Source: an uncultured Actinomycetes bacterium (GTDB taxonomy: Bacteria > Actinomycetota > UBA4738 > CALAEC01). From it: a DNA stretch of 40,718 nucleotides. Below the pieces are notes generated by a model. It saw only the letters and a program-made list of their open reading frames with translations, had not been told where the DNA came from and did not search any database. Each line of letters starts with the position of its first letter. The stretch's first letter is position 1. Of this stretch, positions 6,264 through 26,634 are shown one piece after another. A program made the translations under genes and the position numbers. Location: assembly GCA_937890785.1 (NCBI GenBank), contig CALAEC010000080.1, positions 1-40,718 of the forward strand. Reading direction: 5' to 3'.

Positions 6264-7007
6264 TCAAGCCGCCGGCTTGGTGACCACCCACAGGTCCTCG
6301 GCGGGCCAGTCCCGGGCCCACCGCAGGGAGACGTAGTCCGTGTAGGTCGTGGTGGCGTTTGGGCGCGGGCGCAGGTGGATCAGCCGCTCCACCTCAAGGC
6401 CGCTGTCCCGGAAGAGGCCGACCCACTCGCCATACGGGAGCTGGAACTGGATCGTCTGCTCGTCCTCCTCGCTCCGCATCCCGAACCAGGGCGCGTGGAG
6501 GCGGGTGTCGACCCGTTCGGTCTTCGGGTTCCAGCACATGAACAGGAACGGGCTGGCGACGGAGAAGGCGAACCGGCCCCTGGGCCGGAGGACCCGGGCC
6601 ACCTCGGGCACGGTCCGCTCGGGGTCGGCGAACCCCATGGCGCCGTGATCGGACAGCACGAGGTCGAAGGAGCCATCGCGGAAGGGGAGCTCCTCGGCGC
6701 TGCCGTGGACCAGGGGGATCGTCGCGGTGGCCTCGCGCGCGTGGCGCAGCTGTTCGCCGGAGAGATCGATCCCGACCGGGCGGGCGCCGTCCGCCGCCAG
6801 CGCGATCGACCACTGCGCGGCCCCGCAGCCGAGCTCGAGCACGTTCCGGCCGGCCACCTCGCCGAGCGCCCGGATCTCGGTCTCGGGGATCCGCCACACC
6901 CCCCAGGCCCGGGCCCTCTCGGTGAGACGCTCGCCGTGCTTGGCCTGGTAGCCGGCGGCCATGAAGTCCCAGGTCTTGCGGTTCTGCCGGACGTGCTTCG
7001 AGGGCAC
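6264..7007 (-). CDS. class I SAM-dependent methyltransferase
   Basis: Motif I VLELGCGAAQWS, then GIDLSGEQL, then FDLVLSDHGAMGFADP. Confidence 0.85.
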   Translation of the reverse strand: MPSKHVRQNRKTWDFMAAGYQAKHGERLTERARAWGVWRIPETEIRALGEVAGRNVLELGCGAAQWSIALAADGARPVGIDLSGEQLRHAREATATIPLVHGSAEELPFRDGSFDLVLSDHGAMGFADPERTVPEVARVLRPRGRFAFSVASPFLFMCWNPKTERVDTRLHAPWFGMRSEEDEQTIQFQLPYGEWVGLFRDSGLEVERLIHLRPRPNATTTYTDYVSLRWARDWPAEDLWVVTKPAA

Positions 7008-7033
7008 GGCCGCATCGTACGGGGTTGCCCGAA

Positions 7034-7049
7034 TCGAACACCTGTTCTA
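7034..7049. promoter_or_regulatory. putative LexA SOS (Cheo) box, TCGAAC-ACCT-GTTCTA
   Basis: GAAC(7036-7039)-N4-GTTC(7044-7047), 8 nt upstream of the radical SAM ATG and 27 nt from the divergent methyltransferase start. It overlaps a TANNNT hexamer (TATCCT, 7048-7053). My manual scan found no other GAAC-N4-GTTC in the 40.7 kb. Confidence 0.55.
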
Positions 7050-7056
7050 TCCTTGG

Positions 7057-9147
7057 ATGCCCGTGCGCTGGGACAACCTCCGCCTCGACGTGGACCGGAA
7101 GGACGATCGGGTCACGATCCCCCTGTTCGAGCAGGGCGCGGTGGTCCGGACCTTCGACACGCCCGAGTTCAGGGGGATGACGTTCTACGAGGTCCAGGCG
7201 CGGTCGATCATCAACCGCGTCCCCGATGCCTCATACGTGCCGTTCCGCTGGTCCATCAATCCGTACCGAGGATGCAGCCATGCTTGTGATTACTGCATGG
7301 TCGGGGACACACCCATCCTCATGGCCAATGGGCGAACGAAGCCTATCGCCGACGTAAGGGTCGGGGATCAGATCTGTGGCACGGTCCGGCGGGGAACCTA
7401 TCGCCACTATGCCAAGACCATGGTTCTGGCCCATTGGTCGACGATCAAACAGGCCTACCGGATCAAGCTTGAGGACGGCACGGAACTCGTCGCCAGCGCG
7501 GACCACCGCTTCCTGACCAACAGGGGCTGGAAGCACGTCACCGGAACCGAATGGGGAGCGGATACCCGACCCCACCTCACGACCAACAATAAGTTGATGG
7601 GAACGGGACGTTTCGCTCCGGGCCCCCAAGAGGAATCCGACTACCGACGCGGATACCTCTGCGGAATGGTCCGGGGAGATGGAAGCATCCATTGGAAGAA
7701 GTACACGCGGATGGATGGCACATCAGGTCTCACTGCCACTTTTCGGTTGGCTCTCGCAGACCTTGAGGCTCTGCGTCGCGCCCGCGAGTACCTGATGGGC
7801 TTCGAGGTCGATAGCCGAGAGTTTCTGTTTCAGGCCGCGTCCAAAACCAGGAGAGAACTGCACGCGATCAGTAGCAGCGGCCGGGTCAAGGTCGCAGTTG
7901 TCGAGGACCTCATAGCCTGGCCACCGAAGTCCTCAGTTGAATGGTCGAAGGGATTCCTTGCCGGCATCTTCGACGCTGAGGGTAGCTACAGTCGTGGCGT
8001 CCTTCGTTTTTCCAATACCGCCCTGGACATCCTCGGGGAGATCGCTTCCGCGCTCGACCGACTCGGCTTCGCTTCCCGACTCGAGGTTACGGGCAAACCA
8101 AATGGCCAGTGCACCATCCGAGTGCTCGGAGGGATCCGCGAGGCCCTTCGCTTCTTCCACACCGTCGACCCCGCCATCACCAGGAAACGGTCGATCGAGG
8201 GGCGGGCCATCAAGAGCAATGCCCGGCTAAGGGTCACATCCATCGAGCCCCTGGGCATCGACCTCCCGATGTACGACATCACCACGGGGACCGGCGATTT
8301 CATCGCCAACGGGGTCGTGTCCCACAATTGCTTCGCTCGGAAGACGCACACCTACCTGGACCTCGACTACGGCGAGGACTTCGACACCAAGGTGGTGGTG
8401 AAGGTCAACGCGCCGGAACTGCTGCGGAAGGAGCTGGCCGCCCCGAAGTGGAAGGGCGAGCACATCGCCATGGGCACGAACGTCGACACGTACCAGCGCG
8501 CCGAGGGGCGGTACCGGCTGATGCGCGGCATCCTCGAGGCGCTCCGCGACTTCGCCAACCCGTTCTCGATCCTGACGAAGGGCACGCTGATCCTCCGCGA
8601 CCTCGACCTGCTCCGCGAGTGCGCCGAGGTGACGGACGTCGGCACGAACTTCTCCGTCGGCTCGGTCGACCCCGAGCTGTGGCGCGCCGTCGAGCCCGGC
8701 ACGCCAGCGCCGACCCGCCGCCTGGACGCGGTCCGAAAGCTGAACGAGGCCGGGATCGCCTGTGGCGTCCTGATGGCGCCCATCATCCCGTTCCTCTCCG
8801 ACTCCGACGAGGCCATGGAGGAGACCGTCCGGGCCATCGCCGCGTCCGGCGCCACGCACGTGATGCCGATCGTCCTTCACCTCCGCAAGGGCGGCGCCCG
8901 CGAGTGGTGGATGCGATGGCTCCGCCAGCACCGGCCGGACCTGGTGCCGGAGTACCGGGAGCTGTACGGCGACCGGGCCTACGCGCCCAAGGAGTTCCAG
9001 CAGCAGATCGCCGAGCGGGTTCACTCACTGGCCCGACGGTTCCGGGTCGGCGCGGCAGAGGGACCCCGGCGGGCCAGGCGGATCGCCGCACCCGCTCCGG
9101 AGCCCGAGCAGCTCGCGCTGCCCGAGCCGGCTCAGCGCGCCAGATAG
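7057..9147 (+). CDS. Rv2578c/SplB-like radical SAM protein (DNA-repair-photolyase-like family), intein-containing precursor
   Basis: N-extein ends ...WSINPYRGCSHACDY and C-extein starts CFARKTHTYLDLD..., so removing 7294..8328 restores the canonical CSHACDYCFAR radical SAM motif. Predicted spliced product is about 351 aa. Start ATG 7057 (MPVRWDNL); GTG 7063 is also possible. Confidence 0.9.
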   Translation: MPVRWDNLRLDVDRKDDRVTIPLFEQGAVVRTFDTPEFRGMTFYEVQARSIINRVPDASYVPFRWSINPYRGCSHACDYCMVGDTPILMANGRTKPIADVRVGDQICGTVRRGTYRHYAKTMVLAHWSTIKQAYRIKLEDGTELVASADHRFLTNRGWKHVTGTEWGADTRPHLTTNNKLMGTGRFAPGPQEESDYRRGYLCGMVRGDGSIHWKKYTRMDGTSGLTATFRLALADLEALRRAREYLMGFEVDSREFLFQAASKTRRELHAISSSGRVKVAVVEDLIAWPPKSSVEWSKGFLAGIFDAEGSYSRGVLRFSNTALDILGEIASALDRLGFASRLEVTGKPNGQCTIRVLGGIREALRFFHTVDPAITRKRSIEGRAIKSNARLRVTSIEPLGIDLPMYDITTGTGDFIANGVVSHNCFARKTHTYLDLDYGEDFDTKVVVKVNAPELLRKELAAPKWKGEHIAMGTNVDTYQRAEGRYRLMRGILEALRDFANPFSILTKGTLILRDLDLLRECAEVTDVGTNFSVGSVDPELWRAVEPGTPAPTRRLDAVRKLNEAGIACGVLMAPIIPFLSDSDEAMEETVRAIAASGATHVMPIVLHLRKGGAREWWMRWLRQHRPDLVPEYRELYGDRAYAPKEFQQQIAERVHSLARRFRVGAAEGPRRARRIAAPAPEPEQLALPEPAQRAR
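7294..8328 (+). mobile_element. intein (345 aa, class 1) with LAGLIDADG homing-endonuclease domain
   Basis: Block A CMVGDTPILMANG (Cys1). Block B ELVASADHRFLT. LAGLIDADG motifs GYLCGMVRGDGS (7651-7686) and GFLAGIFDAEGS (7951-7986). Blocks F/G MYDITTGTGDFIANGVVSHN, followed by +1 Cys. Exactly 1035 nt, in frame. Visibly lower GC than the flanking sequence. Confidence 0.9.
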
Positions 9148-25575: not shown

Positions 25576-26250
25576 TCACCCGCGCTCGTGCTTGATGTCG
25601 GTTCCGCCGAGGACCGTGAGCGCGTCGATCCGAAGCTCGGGACCCTCCCCGCCCTCGGCCTTGTTCTCGATGCCGCCGAGGATCGGCGTGCCGCTGGTGG
25701 TCACCCGCCACCCCCTGGGGACCAGGATCTCCACGCCGCCGAGGATCGCCGTGACGTCCAGGACGGCTCCCTCCGGATGCAGCCGGGCGTTGCGGAGATC
25801 GATGGTCACCCCGCCGAACACGGCGGTGGCCGAGCCGCCCCGGAACGAGCTCGACCGGCTGACGACCTCGTGTCCGCCGAACACCGCCGTCGCCCGGACC
25901 AGGTCCTCAGCCGTTCCTTCCTCCCGGAGCACCTCGGGGCCGCGGCCGTGACGGAACAGGATCGCCACCCCCACGGCGATCAGGAGCGCCGGCCACAGCA
26001 GCGCGAACACCGACCCCGTCACCACGTCGGTGGTGAACAGCAGGAGCACCACGCCGACCCCGATCACGATGCCGGGGCCCAGGAGCGACCGGGGCCGGTC
26101 GAAGAGCTGGACAACCCCCAGCGCCACGATGGCCACGGGCCACCAGTCGCCGATCGCCTCGCCGGCCTCGAGGACGTCCGCCCGGTCGAGCAGGAACACC
26201 ACGCCGAGGGCGATCAGCGCCAGGCCGAACAGCACCCTGCCGGGCTTCAT
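25576..26250 (-). CDS. LiaF-like (cell-wall-active antibiotic response) membrane protein
   Basis: ATG 26250 (MKPGRVLFGLALIALGVVFLLDR...). Four TM helices, then the C-terminal LiaF-type domain (ATAVFGG.E......ATAVFGGVTIDLR...VTAILGGVEILVPRGW). Confidence 0.8.
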   Translation of the reverse strand: MKPGRVLFGLALIALGVVFLLDRADVLEAGEAIGDWWPVAIVALGVVQLFDRPRSLLGPGIVIGVGVVLLLFTTDVVTGSVFALLWPALLIAVGVAILFRHGRGPEVLREEGTAEDLVRATAVFGGHEVVSRSSSFRGGSATAVFGGVTIDLRNARLHPEGAVLDVTAILGGVEILVPRGWRVTTSGTPILGGIENKAEGGEGPELRIDALTVLGGTDIKHERG

Positions 26251-26417
26251 CGCGAGCCCCCGAACCGGAACAGCACCCCGGCGATGGCGAACGACGCCAG
26301 CACCCACGCGCCGAGCAGCAGCAGCTGCGATCCGGCCTCGATGATGGGCAGCCCGGGGAACACCTTGGTCAGGTTCTCCACCTCGACGGCTTGCTGGTCC
26401 GTTGCTGTCGTCGTCAC
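26247..26417 (-). CDS. 56-aa membrane protein, translationally coupled to the LiaF-like gene
   Basis: GTG 26417, 4 nt after GGGAAGGAG. (M)TTTATDQQAVEVENLTKVFPGLPIIEAGSQLLLLGAWVLASFAIAGVLFRFGGSR. ATGA overlap with the downstream start. The track ORF 26247..26483 is probably over-extended. Confidence 0.5.
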   Translation of the reverse strand: MTTTATDQQAVEVENLTKVFPGLPIIEAGSQLLLLGAWVLASFAIAGVLFRFGGSR

Positions 26418-26634
26418 GCCACTCCTTCCCTCGCCACCTGCCGAAGCACCTCGTCGATCCAACTGATAGTGGCCCGAGCCCACACGCCAGCCCCGGTCAT
26501 GCTGTCACAAGGGCCCCAGCCGGTTCATATTCCCGCGAACGCCCCACCGGCGCGAGGCCGAACGCCCCACCCCGGCGATGGCCCGGACTGACTATCCATC
26601 ACCGCCCGGGCGGGGCCGATACACATGGCAGTCG

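What the first reader, a model, noticed from the sequence alone, without database searches (positions are those of the whole stretch)
7294..8328. Full-length intein splits the CX3CX2C iron-sulfur motif of an SplB/Rv2578c-like radical SAM protein
Seen directly:
- The host reading frame runs ...NPYRGCSHACDY | CMVGDTPIL...(345 aa)...GVVSHN | CFARKTHTY...
- The insert has every class-1 intein element: Cys1, block B xxDH, two LAGLIDADG motifs, block F Asp, and terminal His-Asn followed by +1 Cys.
- Excising it restores CSHACDYCFAR, the canonical radical SAM cluster motif.

Consequence: the +1 splice nucleophile is itself the third [4Fe-4S] ligand, and the first two ligands lie 3 and 7 residues upstream of the N-terminal splice junction.

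Inference: the precursor cannot assemble the cluster, and cluster or redox chemistry at these cysteines could gate splicing. This would resemble the redox sensitivity reported for some mycobacterial inteins.

This is not a classic intein host such as DnaB, RecA, GyrA, RIR1 or SufB. I believe some archaeal radical SAM proteins carry inteins, so any novelty lies in the host family and the exact insertion point, and I could not check it.
Basis: partly seen in the sequence, partly recalled or inferred. Interest (0 to 1): 0.85.

Follow-up and report, generated by a model that had tools for sequence, protein, structure and literature searches.

The report
Known intein splitting a radical-SAM motif
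The window carries a real, full-length self-splicing intein exactly inside the iron-sulfur-binding motif of a DNA-damage-type radical SAM gene, but NCBI already curates this intein-plus-host combination and it occurs in hundreds of actinobacterial genomes, so it is ordinary.

Summary
Nucleotides 7294-8328 encode a 345-aa class-1 intein with a LAGLIDADG homing endonuclease. It sits between Tyr79 and Cys425 of a 696-aa ORF (7057-9147). Removing it gives a 351-aa protein with CSHACDYCFAR. That protein aligns end to end with intein-less Rv2578c-family radical SAM proteins.

The novelty claim fails:
- NCBIfam has a dedicated model, "intein-containing Rv2578c family radical SAM protein" (NF038136). 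The ORF scores 819 bits against a cutoff of 700.
- A 2015/16 intein survey lists SplB/COG1533 with 48 inteins in Actinobacteria.
- At least 595 species genomes matched, and the best 80 loci match across the intein. 118 of the 120 closest proteins share the same junctions.

The most likely reading is a mobile selfish intein that splices to restore the cluster motif. Its endonuclease residues are intact, its GC3 is atypical, and intein and extein divergence are decoupled. Redox or Fe-S gating is plausible, with the Pyrococcus abyssi MoaA intein as precedent, but it is untested.

By-products:
- A LexA/SOS box lies 8 nt upstream of the start codon.
- Related inteins occupy the same CX3CX2|C position in many other bacterial and phage radical SAM families.

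The parts
7034..7049 (.). LexA/SOS-box-like palindrome TCGAACACCTGTTCTA. It ends 8 nt before ATG 7057 and 14 nt before the alternative GTG 7063.
   Evidence: Sequence read. It is the only GAAC-N4-GTTC in the 40.7-kb window. 26 of 50 related loci have such a box within 120 nt upstream. M. tuberculosis Rv2578c/Rv2579 is a LexA ChIP-seq target.
7057..9147 (+). Precursor CDS, 696 aa plus stop: an intein-containing Rv2578c-family radical SAM protein. Most homologues start at the position of GTG 7063 (M-R-W...).
   Evidence: NF038136 scores 819.3 bits against a cutoff of 700. An identical 696-aa protein, P0001, is in public data.
7057..7293 (+). N-extein, 79 aa. It ends ...NPYRGC73SHAC77DY79. Cys73 (7273-7275) and Cys77 (7285-7287) are cluster ligands 1 and 2, at positions -7 and -3 from the splice site.
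   Evidence: C73 and C77 are invariant in 26 aligned precursors.
7264..7293 (+). Last 10 N-extein codons, with atypically low GC3 (0.4 in the window). Possibly a co-conversion tract that travels with the intein.
   Evidence: across 78 intein-bearing loci, GC3 is 0.67 in this block and 0.92-0.93 in the blocks upstream. Intein-less alleles give 0.8-1.0, except a lower-GC Arthrobacter.
7294..8328 (+). Intein, 345 aa, class 1: a Hint splicing domain interrupted by a LAGLIDADG homing endonuclease.
   Evidence: Foldseek of the model puts PI-PfuI, TliVMA and PI-SceI on top (E 1e-12 to 1e-10).
7294..7296 (+). Intein Cys1, the nucleophile for the N-S acyl shift.
   Evidence: Present in all 184 related inteins, but this is partly by construction of the search pattern.
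7495..7506 (+). Block B S-A-D-H, the TxxH equivalent. His71 is the conserved catalytic histidine.
   Evidence: His is present in 183/184 and Ser in 181/184.
7648..7686 (+). LAGLIDADG motif 1 (RGYLCGMVRGDGS), with catalytic Asp129.
   Evidence: Asp is conserved in 174/184.
7951..7986 (+). LAGLIDADG motif 2 (GFLAGIFDAEGS), with catalytic Glu229.
   Evidence: PF14528 gives E=8.6e-13, above its cutoff. Glu is conserved in 166/184. The model matches I-DmoI at TM 0.76-0.79.
8266..8313 (+). Block F (PMYDITTGTGDFIANG), with Asp328.
   Evidence: Asp is conserved in 184/184.
8323..8328 (+). Block G His344-Asn345. The terminal Asn cyclises to release the intein.
   Evidence: 118/120 homologues end in SHN.
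8329..9147 (+). C-extein, 272 aa plus stop. It starts with Cys+1 (8329-8331), which is both the trans-thioesterification nucleophile and the third [4Fe-4S] ligand. The rest of the radical SAM core follows.
   Evidence: PF04055 hits residues 453-587. The spliced protein matches NF038135 at 497.3 bits against a cutoff of 430, in one stretch covering profile positions 1-316 of 317.

Best explanation
This is a canonical class-1 intein carrying a LAGLIDADG homing endonuclease. It is inserted immediately before the third cysteine of the CX3CX2C motif of a chromosomal Rv2578c-family (COG1533) radical SAM gene that is probably SOS-regulated.

Inferred mechanism, from standard class-1 intein chemistry:
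1. The 696-aa precursor is translated.
2. Cys80 (intein Cys1) makes an N-S acyl shift at Tyr79.
3. Cys425 (+1) attacks the thioester.
4. Asn424 cyclises and releases the 345-aa intein.
5. An S-N shift leaves a 351-aa enzyme with CSHACDYCFAR, which can then receive its [4Fe-4S] cluster.

The free intein, or the precursor, is a site-specific endonuclease. It cuts intein-less alleles at the TAC|TGC junction and copies itself in by repair (homing).

The position inside the cluster motif is best explained by selfish-element logic, not by a built-in regulatory role:
- The site supplies an obligatory +1 Cys.
- It lies in sequence the host cannot change.
- Any imprecise deletion would kill the gene.

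The same element lineage uses this site in many radical SAM families.

Shown here: identity, boundaries, conservation and distribution. Inferred: splicing, homing and SOS control.
For: Identity and boundaries:
- NF038136 scores 819 bits (cutoff 700). TIGR01445 and LAGLIDADG_3 are above their cutoffs.
- The gap against intein-less orthologues is a clean 345 aa.
- The spliced product matches the intein-less equivalog NF038135 over 316/317 positions.

Splicing competence:
- Block B His is present in 183/184 related inteins. Block F Asp, the terminal His-Asn and Cys+1 are present in all 184.

Fold:
- The endonuclease domain is modelled at pLDDT 80-93.
- The best PDB matches are intein endonucleases PI-PfuI, TliVMA and PI-SceI, and I-DmoI at TM 0.76-0.79.

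Mobility:
- Catalytic Asp129 and Glu229 are intact here and in 174/184 and 166/184 relatives.
- Intein GC3 is 74.5% against 92.5% for the exteins in the window, and is lower in 69/79 loci.
- GC3 dips over 10 codons next to the N-junction.
- Between classes, intein identity (0.63-0.68) exceeds extein identity (0.45-0.50).
- Homologous inteins sit at the same motif position in PA0069, DUF5131, B12-binding, SPASM and QueE-like radical SAM proteins of bacteria and phages.

Prevalence:
- 118 of the 120 best homologues share the junctions.
- At least 595 species genomes matched, and the best 80 loci match across the intein. They span Actinomycetes, Thermoleophilia and Acidimicrobiia.

SOS context.
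Against: - No experiment. Splicing, endonuclease activity and LexA binding are all inferred from sequence.
- Pfam Intein_splicing is below its gathering score (30.9 bits against 35.8).
- TIGR01443 is below its cutoff when the intein is scanned alone (14.6 against 15.6).
- The Hint part of the structural model has only moderate confidence, and the exteins are poorly modelled.
- Intein and extein distances still correlate (r=0.63), so much of the inheritance is vertical. The GC3 signals could also reflect relaxed codon selection rather than transfer.
- The selfish explanation does not exclude an added regulatory role.
Confidence: 0.8

Rival explanations
1. Conditional protein splicing. Four cysteines (Cys-7, Cys-3, Cys1, Cys+1) converge at the splice centre. 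Under oxidising conditions a Cys-3/Cys1 or Cys1/Cys+1 disulfide blocks step 1 or step 2. Zinc, iron or an Fe-S cluster bound to the precursor's own C73-X3-C77-X2-C80 motif could do the same. The O2-labile radical SAM enzyme would then mature only under reducing, Fe-S-replete conditions. The intein would act as an adaptive post-translational checkpoint on an SOS-induced protein.
For: - The Cys-3-x-x-Cys1 spacing is the one reported for the native disulfide trap of the P. abyssi MoaA intein and for the engineered Ssp DnaE redox trap.
- The spacing is invariant in this family because it comes from the CX3CX2C motif.
- The gene carries an SOS box, so timing of activity could matter.
- Reviews list redox, metal and DNA-damage-responsive inteins as established phenomena.
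Against: - Nothing here tests it.
- The cysteine arrangement follows automatically from any Cys1 intein inserted before the third ligand, so it is not evidence of selection for sensing.
- The same intein lineage sits at this site in many unrelated radical SAM enzymes and in phages. That fits opportunistic homing better than host-specific regulation.
- The endonuclease residues are maintained, as expected for a still-selfish element.
Confidence: 0.2
2. A fixed, no longer mobile intein. The element was acquired once, early in these actinobacterial lineages, and is now inherited only vertically. Its endonuclease is inactive or retained for another reason, and the element persists only because precise deletion is improbable.
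For: - Intein and extein distances correlate positively (r=0.63).
- All 80 best genome loci and 118 of the 120 closest proteins carry it.
- Some relatives have shortened inteins of 250-331 aa, which suggests endonuclease decay in places.
Against: - Both catalytic acidic residues are present here and in about 90-95% of relatives.
- Inter-class intein identity exceeds extein identity.
- GC3 is depressed in the intein and the adjacent N-extein.
- Intein-less alleles exist in related genera: Nonomuraea, Streptomyces, Arthrobacter and Tsukamurella.
Confidence: 0.15
3. A non-splicing insertion. The Hint/LAGLIDADG module is a degenerate or domesticated domain that stays in the mature protein, and the gene is either inactive or works without the canonical cluster motif.
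For: Only weak points: Pfam Intein_splicing is below threshold, and the precursor retains a linear CX3CX2C using Cys1.
Against: - All splice-site and catalytic residues are invariant or nearly so across 184 relatives.
- The ORF is intact.
- The exteins are under strong conservation and reconstitute a full-length match to the intein-less family profile only after excision.
Confidence: 0.03

Closest known systems
NCBIfam NF038136 'intein-containing Rv2578c family radical SAM protein' (also SplB/COG1533 inteins in Novikova et al. 2016, PMC4760082)
   Same: Same host family, same insertion point and same intein type. The window ORF scores 819 bits against a cutoff of 700, and the intein maps to profile positions 76-334. 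NCBI uses this name for close homologues. The survey counts 48 SplB inteins in Actinobacteria.
   Different: Nothing essential. The window copy comes from an uncultured Actinomycetota lineage. The best species-genome match is 69% identical and the best non-identical proteins 78-79%, apart from a 95%-identical partial match, P0002. Its GC3 contrast with the host gene is stronger than average.
Pyrococcus abyssi MoaA intein (native redox trap; Callahan et al. 2011, as described in PMC3922620 and PMC10663303)
   Same: The intein has Cys1, and an N-extein Cys at -3 can disulfide-bond to it. The host is an oxygen-labile metalloenzyme. From my own knowledge, MoaA is also a radical SAM enzyme with an N-terminal CX3CX2C motif.
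   Different: It is archaeal and in a different host family. Redox control of splicing was shown experimentally there and not here. I could not verify that the MoaA intein sits at the same motif position, because the primary paper is not held.
Mycobacterial stress-responsive inteins (M. tuberculosis SufB, M. smegmatis DnaB)
   Same: They are actinobacterial class-1 inteins whose catalytic cysteines react to oxidative or nitrosative stress or zinc. SufB is also tied to Fe-S metabolism (titles and abstracts).
   Different: They have different hosts and insertion sites. Their cysteines are not cofactor ligands of the host. Sequence similarity to this intein is weak (DnaB intein PDB hits at E 0.004-0.03).
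P-loop intein hot spot in ATPases (Novikova et al. 2016)
   Same: The concept is the same. Inteins recur at the analogous position of a superfamily-defining cofactor-binding motif in non-orthologous proteins. Here the motif is the radical SAM CX3CX2C.
   Different: The superfamily and ligand differ. Here the +1 splice nucleophile is itself a cofactor ligand, and the inteins at the site are recognisably homologous, 20-55% identical including the endonuclease domain.
PI-PfuI / PI-SceI / TliVMA intein endonucleases and I-DmoI
   Same: Same architecture, a Hint domain plus a two-motif monomeric LAGLIDADG endonuclease. These are the top structural matches.
   Different: Only 12-17% sequence identity. 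They lie in different hosts (RNR, VMA ATPase, an intron), and this intein has no extra DNA-recognition region of the PI-SceI kind at 345 aa.

Membership tests
Class 1 intein (Hint splicing domain) | Cys/Ser at intein position 1 and Cys/Ser/Thr at +1 | tested here: met
   Cys80 (7294-7296) and Cys425 (8329-8331).
Class 1 intein (Hint splicing domain) | Block B TxxH with conserved His; block F Asp; block G penultimate His and terminal Asn | tested here: met
   S68-A-D-H71, D328 and H344-N345. Conserved in 183-184 of 184 relatives. Ser replaces the usual Thr in block B.
Class 1 intein (Hint splicing domain) | Matches curated intein splicing-region profiles above threshold | tested here: inconclusive
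   TIGR01445 N-terminal region: 28.4-30 bits against 24.5, met. TIGR01443 C-terminal region: 18.4 against 15.6 in the precursor, but 14.6 when the intein is scanned alone. Pfam Intein_splicing: 30.9 against 35.8, not met.
Class 1 intein (Hint splicing domain) | Hint fold | tested here: inconclusive
   The AF2 model has pLDDT of only ~58-73 in the Hint strands. Whole-model Foldseek still ranks PI-PfuI, TliVMA and PI-SceI first at E 1e-12 to 1e-10, but with global rmsd ~16 A.
Class 1 intein (Hint splicing domain) | Autocatalytic excision with extein ligation | not testable with these tools
   Needs expression and SDS-PAGE or MS.
LAGLIDADG homing endonuclease (two-motif, monomeric) | Two LAGLIDADG motifs, each with a terminal acidic catalytic residue | tested here: met
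   RGYLCGMVRGD129GS and GFLAGIFDAE229GS. PF14528 gives 48.8 bits against 22.5.
LAGLIDADG homing endonuclease (two-motif, monomeric) | alpha-beta-beta-alpha-beta-beta-alpha pseudo-dimeric fold | tested here: met
   The domain is modelled at pLDDT 80-93. I-DmoI matches at TM 0.76-0.79, rmsd ~3.4 A over ~185 columns.
LAGLIDADG homing endonuclease (two-motif, monomeric) | Site-specific cleavage of the intein-less allele | not testable with these tools
   Needs an in vitro cleavage assay.
NCBIfam NF038136, intein-containing Rv2578c family radical SAM protein | Whole-protein score at or above the curated cutoff of 700 bits | tested here: met
   819.3 bits, E=2e-246, residues 3-661 on profile positions 1-570 of 574.
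Rv2578c family radical SAM protein (NF038135) / radical SAM superfamily | The spliced sequence matches the intein-less equivalog above cutoff and carries CX3CX2C | tested here: met
   497.3 bits against 430, one stretch over profile positions 1-316 of 317. Motif CSHACDYC. PF04055 gives 49.3 bits against 29.5. Aligned to Nonomuraea and Tsukamurella orthologues.
Spore photoproduct lyase proper (TIGR04070 / PF20903) | Score above the curated cutoff | tested here: not met
   16.9 bits against 400, and 14.2 against 27. The PDB SPL entry 4k9r matches only at E=0.94. 'SplB' is a COG-level label only.
Redox-trap intein (P. abyssi MoaA type) | An N-extein Cys at -3 positioned to disulfide-bond with Cys1 | tested here: met
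   Cys77 is at -3, in C77-D-Y-C80.
Redox-trap intein (P. abyssi MoaA type) | Splicing blocked when oxidised and released by reductant | not testable with these tools
   Biochemical assay required.
Actinobacterial LexA (SOS) regulon | A TCGAAC-N4-GTTCGA-type box in the promoter region | tested here: met
   TCGAACACCTGTTCTA at 7034-7049, one mismatch to the palindrome and unique in the window. 26/50 related loci have a box. The Mtb orthologue is a LexA ChIP target. Binding itself was not tested.

The most novel reading that the evidence does not exclude
The window's intein may be one member of a large, recognisably homologous intein clade that specialises on the radical SAM cluster motif. It inserts just before the third (sometimes the second) cysteine of CX3CX2C in at least eight kinds of radical SAM protein in bacteria and phages: Rv2578c, PA0069, DUF5131/Gp37-Gp68, B12-binding, SPASM, Fer4_12-type, NrdG-like and QueE-like.

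In every case the +1 splice nucleophile is an Fe-S ligand, and a CxxC bridges the N-terminal junction. The strongest reading is that this geometry makes splicing redox-, metal- or cluster-gated across the whole clade. The O2-labile enzymes, here an SOS-induced one, would then mature only under permissive conditions.

The hot spot itself is directly seen. I found no paper describing it in the library searched. The gating is pure hypothesis.
Probability: 0.2. Interest if true: 0.7.

Novelty: already known. Interest (0 to 1): 0.3.

Why it matters
As submitted, the finding adds one more copy of a curated, widespread intein allele, so its main value is as a correct annotation. Two things give it some residual interest.

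First, it is a clean natural case where both the residue preceding-motif cysteines and the +1 nucleophile are cofactor ligands. The gene also appears to be SOS-controlled. That makes it a convenient system for testing whether inteins act as post-translational switches, which remains an open question in the intein field.

Second, following it outward showed that related inteins recur at the same position of the CX3CX2C motif across many radical SAM families and in phage genomes. This parallels the known P-loop hot spot in ATPases. If it is not already documented, it deserves a systematic census. It also matters for annotation. Intein-bearing radical SAM genes are easily mis-sized, mis-started or mis-named, and at least one phage SNF2-type protein is labelled 'radical SAM-like', possibly because of its intein.

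Tried and rejected
- Gene context lookup: the exact-sequence lookup for P0001 found nothing on record. I mapped neighbours by GC3-filtered ORFs and Pfam instead. They are unrelated housekeeping genes (ABC transporter, methyltransferase, esterase, thioesterase). No operon partner was found.
- Solved structures for the extein family: none. Only spore photoproduct lyase 4k9r matches, at E=0.94.
- AlphaFold of the whole precursor from a 26-sequence alignment gave mean pLDDT 60, with the exteins below 50. The model cannot be used for cysteine geometry at the splice centre, so I used only the endonuclease domain.
- Primary papers on the MoaA redox trap and the 2014 JBC intein review are not held. 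I could not confirm that the MoaA intein sits in the CX3CX2C motif.
- Supplementary tables of Novikova et al. are not held.
- Literature searches found no description of the motif-level insertion. Terms tried: intein + radical SAM, SplB, CX3CX2C, 4Fe-4S, Rv2578c. Hits for a Campylobacter phage and for Methanothermobacter were irrelevant.
- Homing-site conservation: the 60 nt around the insertion point are no more conserved at DNA level than the next 60 nt of extein, 1.32-1.40 against 1.38 bits per position. That argument gave nothing.
- The best phage GenBank hit to the intein, Virus Rctr197k gene 024, is annotated 'radical SAM protein-like'. It is really an intein in an SNF2-related protein, not a radical SAM host.
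- Rfam found nothing in the window.
Full report

Yes, exactly as written. The + strand ORF 7057-9147 translates to 696 aa. It reads ...NPYRGCSHACDY|CMVGDTPIL...GVVSHN|CFARKTHTY....

A script places the insert at nt 7294-8328, 345 aa. Deleting it gives a 351-aa protein with CSHACDYCFAR. All named intein elements are at the coordinates I list under 'parts'.

Profile searches rule out chance:
- Pfam Radical_SAM and LAGLIDADG_3 are above threshold.
- NCBIfam intein N-terminal region TIGR01445 is above threshold.
- The spliced sequence matches the intein-less equivalog model NF038135 in a single stretch over 316 of 317 profile positions, at 497 bits against a cutoff of 430.

I fetched real intein-less orthologues from the plasmid/chromid collection: Nonomuraea, Tsukamurella (annotated 'Rv2578c family radical SAM protein'), three Streptomyces and an Arthrobacter. 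They read NPYRGCxHxCxYCFAR. The three-way alignment shows one clean 345-column gap.

**2. What is it, and is it new?**

The same NCBIfam scan returned NF038136, 'intein-containing Rv2578c family radical SAM protein', at 819 bits against a curated cutoff of 700. The intein occupies profile positions 76-334. So NCBI already has an HMM built for exactly this gene architecture and insertion point.

Other evidence of prevalence:
- The 120 best hits in the 5.8-billion-protein search are almost all 680-720 aa (a few are partial) and share Radical_SAM plus intein-type Pfam content. NCBI names them with that phrase and JGI calls them 'DNA repair photolyase' (COG1533).
- 118 of the 120 have the junctions CxxxCxx|C...SHN|CFAR, with intein lengths of 339-348 aa.
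595 of 600 stretches were confirmed, and the best 80 all match across the intein. They come from Micromonospora, Planosporangium, Asanoa, Virgisporangium, Streptosporangiaceae, Pseudonocardiaceae, Conexibacter and other Thermoleophilia, and Acidimicrobiales.
- Novikova et al. (Mol Biol Evol 2016, PMC4760082) list SplB/COG1533 with 48 inteins, all in Actinobacteria, in the same table as DnaB, RecA and GyrA.

The window organism itself is an uncultured Actinomycetota lineage. The best species-genome match is 69% identical. An identical protein is already in NCBI/ENA from a contig of the window's length.

**3. Anatomy and likely mechanism**

Across 184 related inteins, block B His is present in 183. 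Block F Asp, the terminal His-Asn and Cys+1 are present in all 184. Cys1, Asn and Cys+1 were partly fixed by my extraction pattern.

The two LAGLIDADG catalytic residues, Asp129 and Glu229, are intact in the window copy. They are conserved in 174 and 166 of the 184.

An AlphaFold model of the precursor was poor overall (pLDDT 60) but confident for the endonuclease domain (80-93). Foldseek ranks PI-PfuI, TliVMA intein and PI-SceI first. It superposes the endonuclease domain on I-DmoI at TM 0.76-0.79.

The straightforward reading is standard class-1 splicing that restores the cluster motif, plus homing by the endonuclease.

Several features point to continuing or recent mobility:
- Intein GC3 is 74.5% against 92.5% for the exteins in the window, and is lower than the host gene in 69 of 79 loci.
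- The last ten N-extein codons have GC3 of 0.67 across 78 loci (0.4 in the window), against 0.92-0.93 further upstream. Five of six intein-less alleles do not show this dip. This looks like a co-conversion tract.
- Intein identity plateaus at about 0.57-0.59 while extein identity falls below 0.5. In inter-class pairs the inteins are more alike (0.63-0.68) than their hosts (0.45-0.50).

Against this, intein and extein distances still correlate (r=0.63), so inheritance is largely vertical.

**4. The redox / Fe-S gating idea**

It is reasonable but untested, and it is not specific to this locus. The Cys-3-x-x-Cys1 spacing is the one reported for the native disulfide trap of the Pyrococcus abyssi MoaA intein and for the engineered DnaE redox trap. 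I could not read the primary paper.

So 'cannot assemble the cluster' does not follow from sequence alone. Metal or cluster binding to the precursor is itself a possible brake on splicing.

Any Cys1 intein inserted before the third ligand produces this arrangement automatically. It is therefore not evidence for selection as a sensor.

**5. Surroundings**

The only GAAC-N4-GTTC in the 40.7-kb window is TCGAACACCTGTTCTA at 7034-7049, which ends 8 nt before the ATG. 26 of 50 related loci have such a box within 120 nt upstream. Three of six intein-less alleles have an exact box somewhere upstream of the motif, at varying distances. M. tuberculosis Rv2578c/Rv2579 is a RecA-dependent LexA ChIP-seq target. 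The gene is therefore probably SOS-regulated.

This also explains the spurious in-frame N-terminal extensions (…IEHLFYP…) in the 728-aa ORF and in some database entries.

Neighbouring genes are unrelated housekeeping functions: a divergent class I methyltransferase, an esterase, a thioesterase and an ABC transporter.

'SplB' is only a COG-level label. True spore photoproduct lyase models are far below cutoff, and no structure exists for the family.

**6. Where the evidence led beyond the finding**

A full HMMER search of the intein alone against 1.84 billion representative proteins gave 2,643 hits, 304 of them below 1e-30. Among the best 150:
- 81 of the 95 sequences with an N-junction present have CxxxCxx|C.
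- 73 of the 84 with a C-junction present have N|C.

Many of these hosts are not Rv2578c proteins. After in-silico splicing they match ParB_N-DUF5131, B12-binding radical SAM, PA0069 family, NrdG-like or generic Radical_SAM. One (P0176) has the intein before the second cysteine instead.

An IMG/VR scan with an alignment of these inteins gave 353 confirmed viral stretches. Of the 31 best that I examined:
- 27 sit directly before the last cysteine of the cluster motif;
- 2 sit before the middle cysteine;
- 2 sit elsewhere.

All ten spliced viral hosts I tested match Radical_SAM (some also with SPASM or Fer4_12) or DUF5131. A QueE-like motif was judged by eye from the junction sequence.

So the CX3CX2C motif is an intein hot spot across the radical SAM superfamily, occupied by a homologous intein lineage that phages also carry. 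This parallels the P-loop hot spot. Five literature searches found no description of it. The library lacks most subscription papers and the InBase tables, so I cannot claim it is unreported.

**7. Verdict**

- Observation: confirmed.
- Interpretation: partly supported. Intein, host and site are correct. The novelty claim is wrong. Gating is untested.
- Novelty of the finding as given: already known.
- Interest: 0.3. The residual interest is its use as a test system for conditional splicing and as the entry point to the superfamily-wide hot spot.

Noticed in passing
window 7034-7049: LexA/SOS-box-like palindrome TCGAACACCTGTTCTA, ending 8 nt upstream of the start codon. It is the only GAAC-N4-GTTC in the window. 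Similar boxes occur upstream of 26/50 related intein-bearing loci, and three of six intein-less alleles have an exact box upstream at varying distance. The Mtb orthologue Rv2578c is a LexA ChIP-seq target.
   Followed up: partly
P0149, P0163, P0167, P0176, P0200, P0216 etc.; L088-L122: Inteins 20-55% identical to the window's sit at the same CX3CX2|C position in many other radical SAM families of bacteria and in IMG/VR phage contigs. The families include PA0069, ParB_N-DUF5131, B12-binding, SPASM, Fer4_12-type, NrdG-like and QueE-like. This is a superfamily-wide hot spot, and I found no paper describing it in the library searched.
   Followed up: partly
P0176; L114 2501-3481, L122 2501-3469: There is a second insertion point in the same motif. 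The intein lies before the middle cysteine (CX3|CX2C), for example SRGCPYR|C...HN|CNFC.
   Followed up: no
window 7264-7293; 78 related loci: The last ten N-extein codons next to the intein have strongly depressed GC3: 0.4 in the window, 0.67 on average, against 0.92-0.93 upstream. The first ten C-extein codons dip slightly (0.84). Five of six intein-less alleles lack the dip. This may be a co-conversion tract from homing.
   Followed up: partly
window 7294-8328 vs 7057-7293 and 8329-9147: The intein has 60.9% GC and 74.5% GC3, in a gene whose exteins have 92.5% GC3 and a window of 70.8% GC. The lowest block (GC3 0.48) lies in the endonuclease domain.
   Followed up: partly
184 related inteins and exteins: Intein identity levels off near 0.57-0.59 while extein identity keeps falling. 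Thermoleophilia versus Actinomycetes pairs have inteins more alike (0.63-0.68) than their host proteins (0.45-0.50), which suggests horizontal intein flow between classes.
   Followed up: partly
window 6961-7056; P0003, P0013, P0018, P0054 N-termini: The mechanical ORF extends upstream to ATG 6961 (728 aa). Several database homologues carry N-terminal extensions such as ...GIERVFYP.... These are translations of the conserved SOS box and promoter region, so they are probably mis-called starts. Most homologues begin at the position of GTG 7063.
   Followed up: partly
L083 792-4061 (Virus Rctr197k gene 024, KX853510.1): This protein is annotated 'radical SAM protein-like protein', but the host matches SNF2-related domain only weakly and below Pfam's threshold (E=1.2e-4; DEAQ box read by eye) and carries an intein 25% identical to the window's. 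The label may come from intein similarity to intein-bearing radical SAM proteins.
   Followed up: partly
Related loci and proteins: A minority of relatives carry shortened inteins of 250-331 aa at the same site, and about 5-10% have lost one of the two endonuclease acidic residues. This is consistent with endonuclease decay in some lineages.
   Followed up: no
window 25936-26028 (- strand): ARAGORN calls a 93-nt tRNA-His(GTG) inside a high-GC3 ORF (25576-26496, -), but Rfam finds no tRNA or any other family in the window at gathering threshold. It is probably a false positive.
   Followed up: no
10.1101/2025.02.27.640095: In Streptomyces, the orthologous intein-less Rv2578c-family gene is the attB target of the Samy prophage integrase. 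This gene family therefore hosts a second, unrelated kind of mobile element.
   Followed up: no
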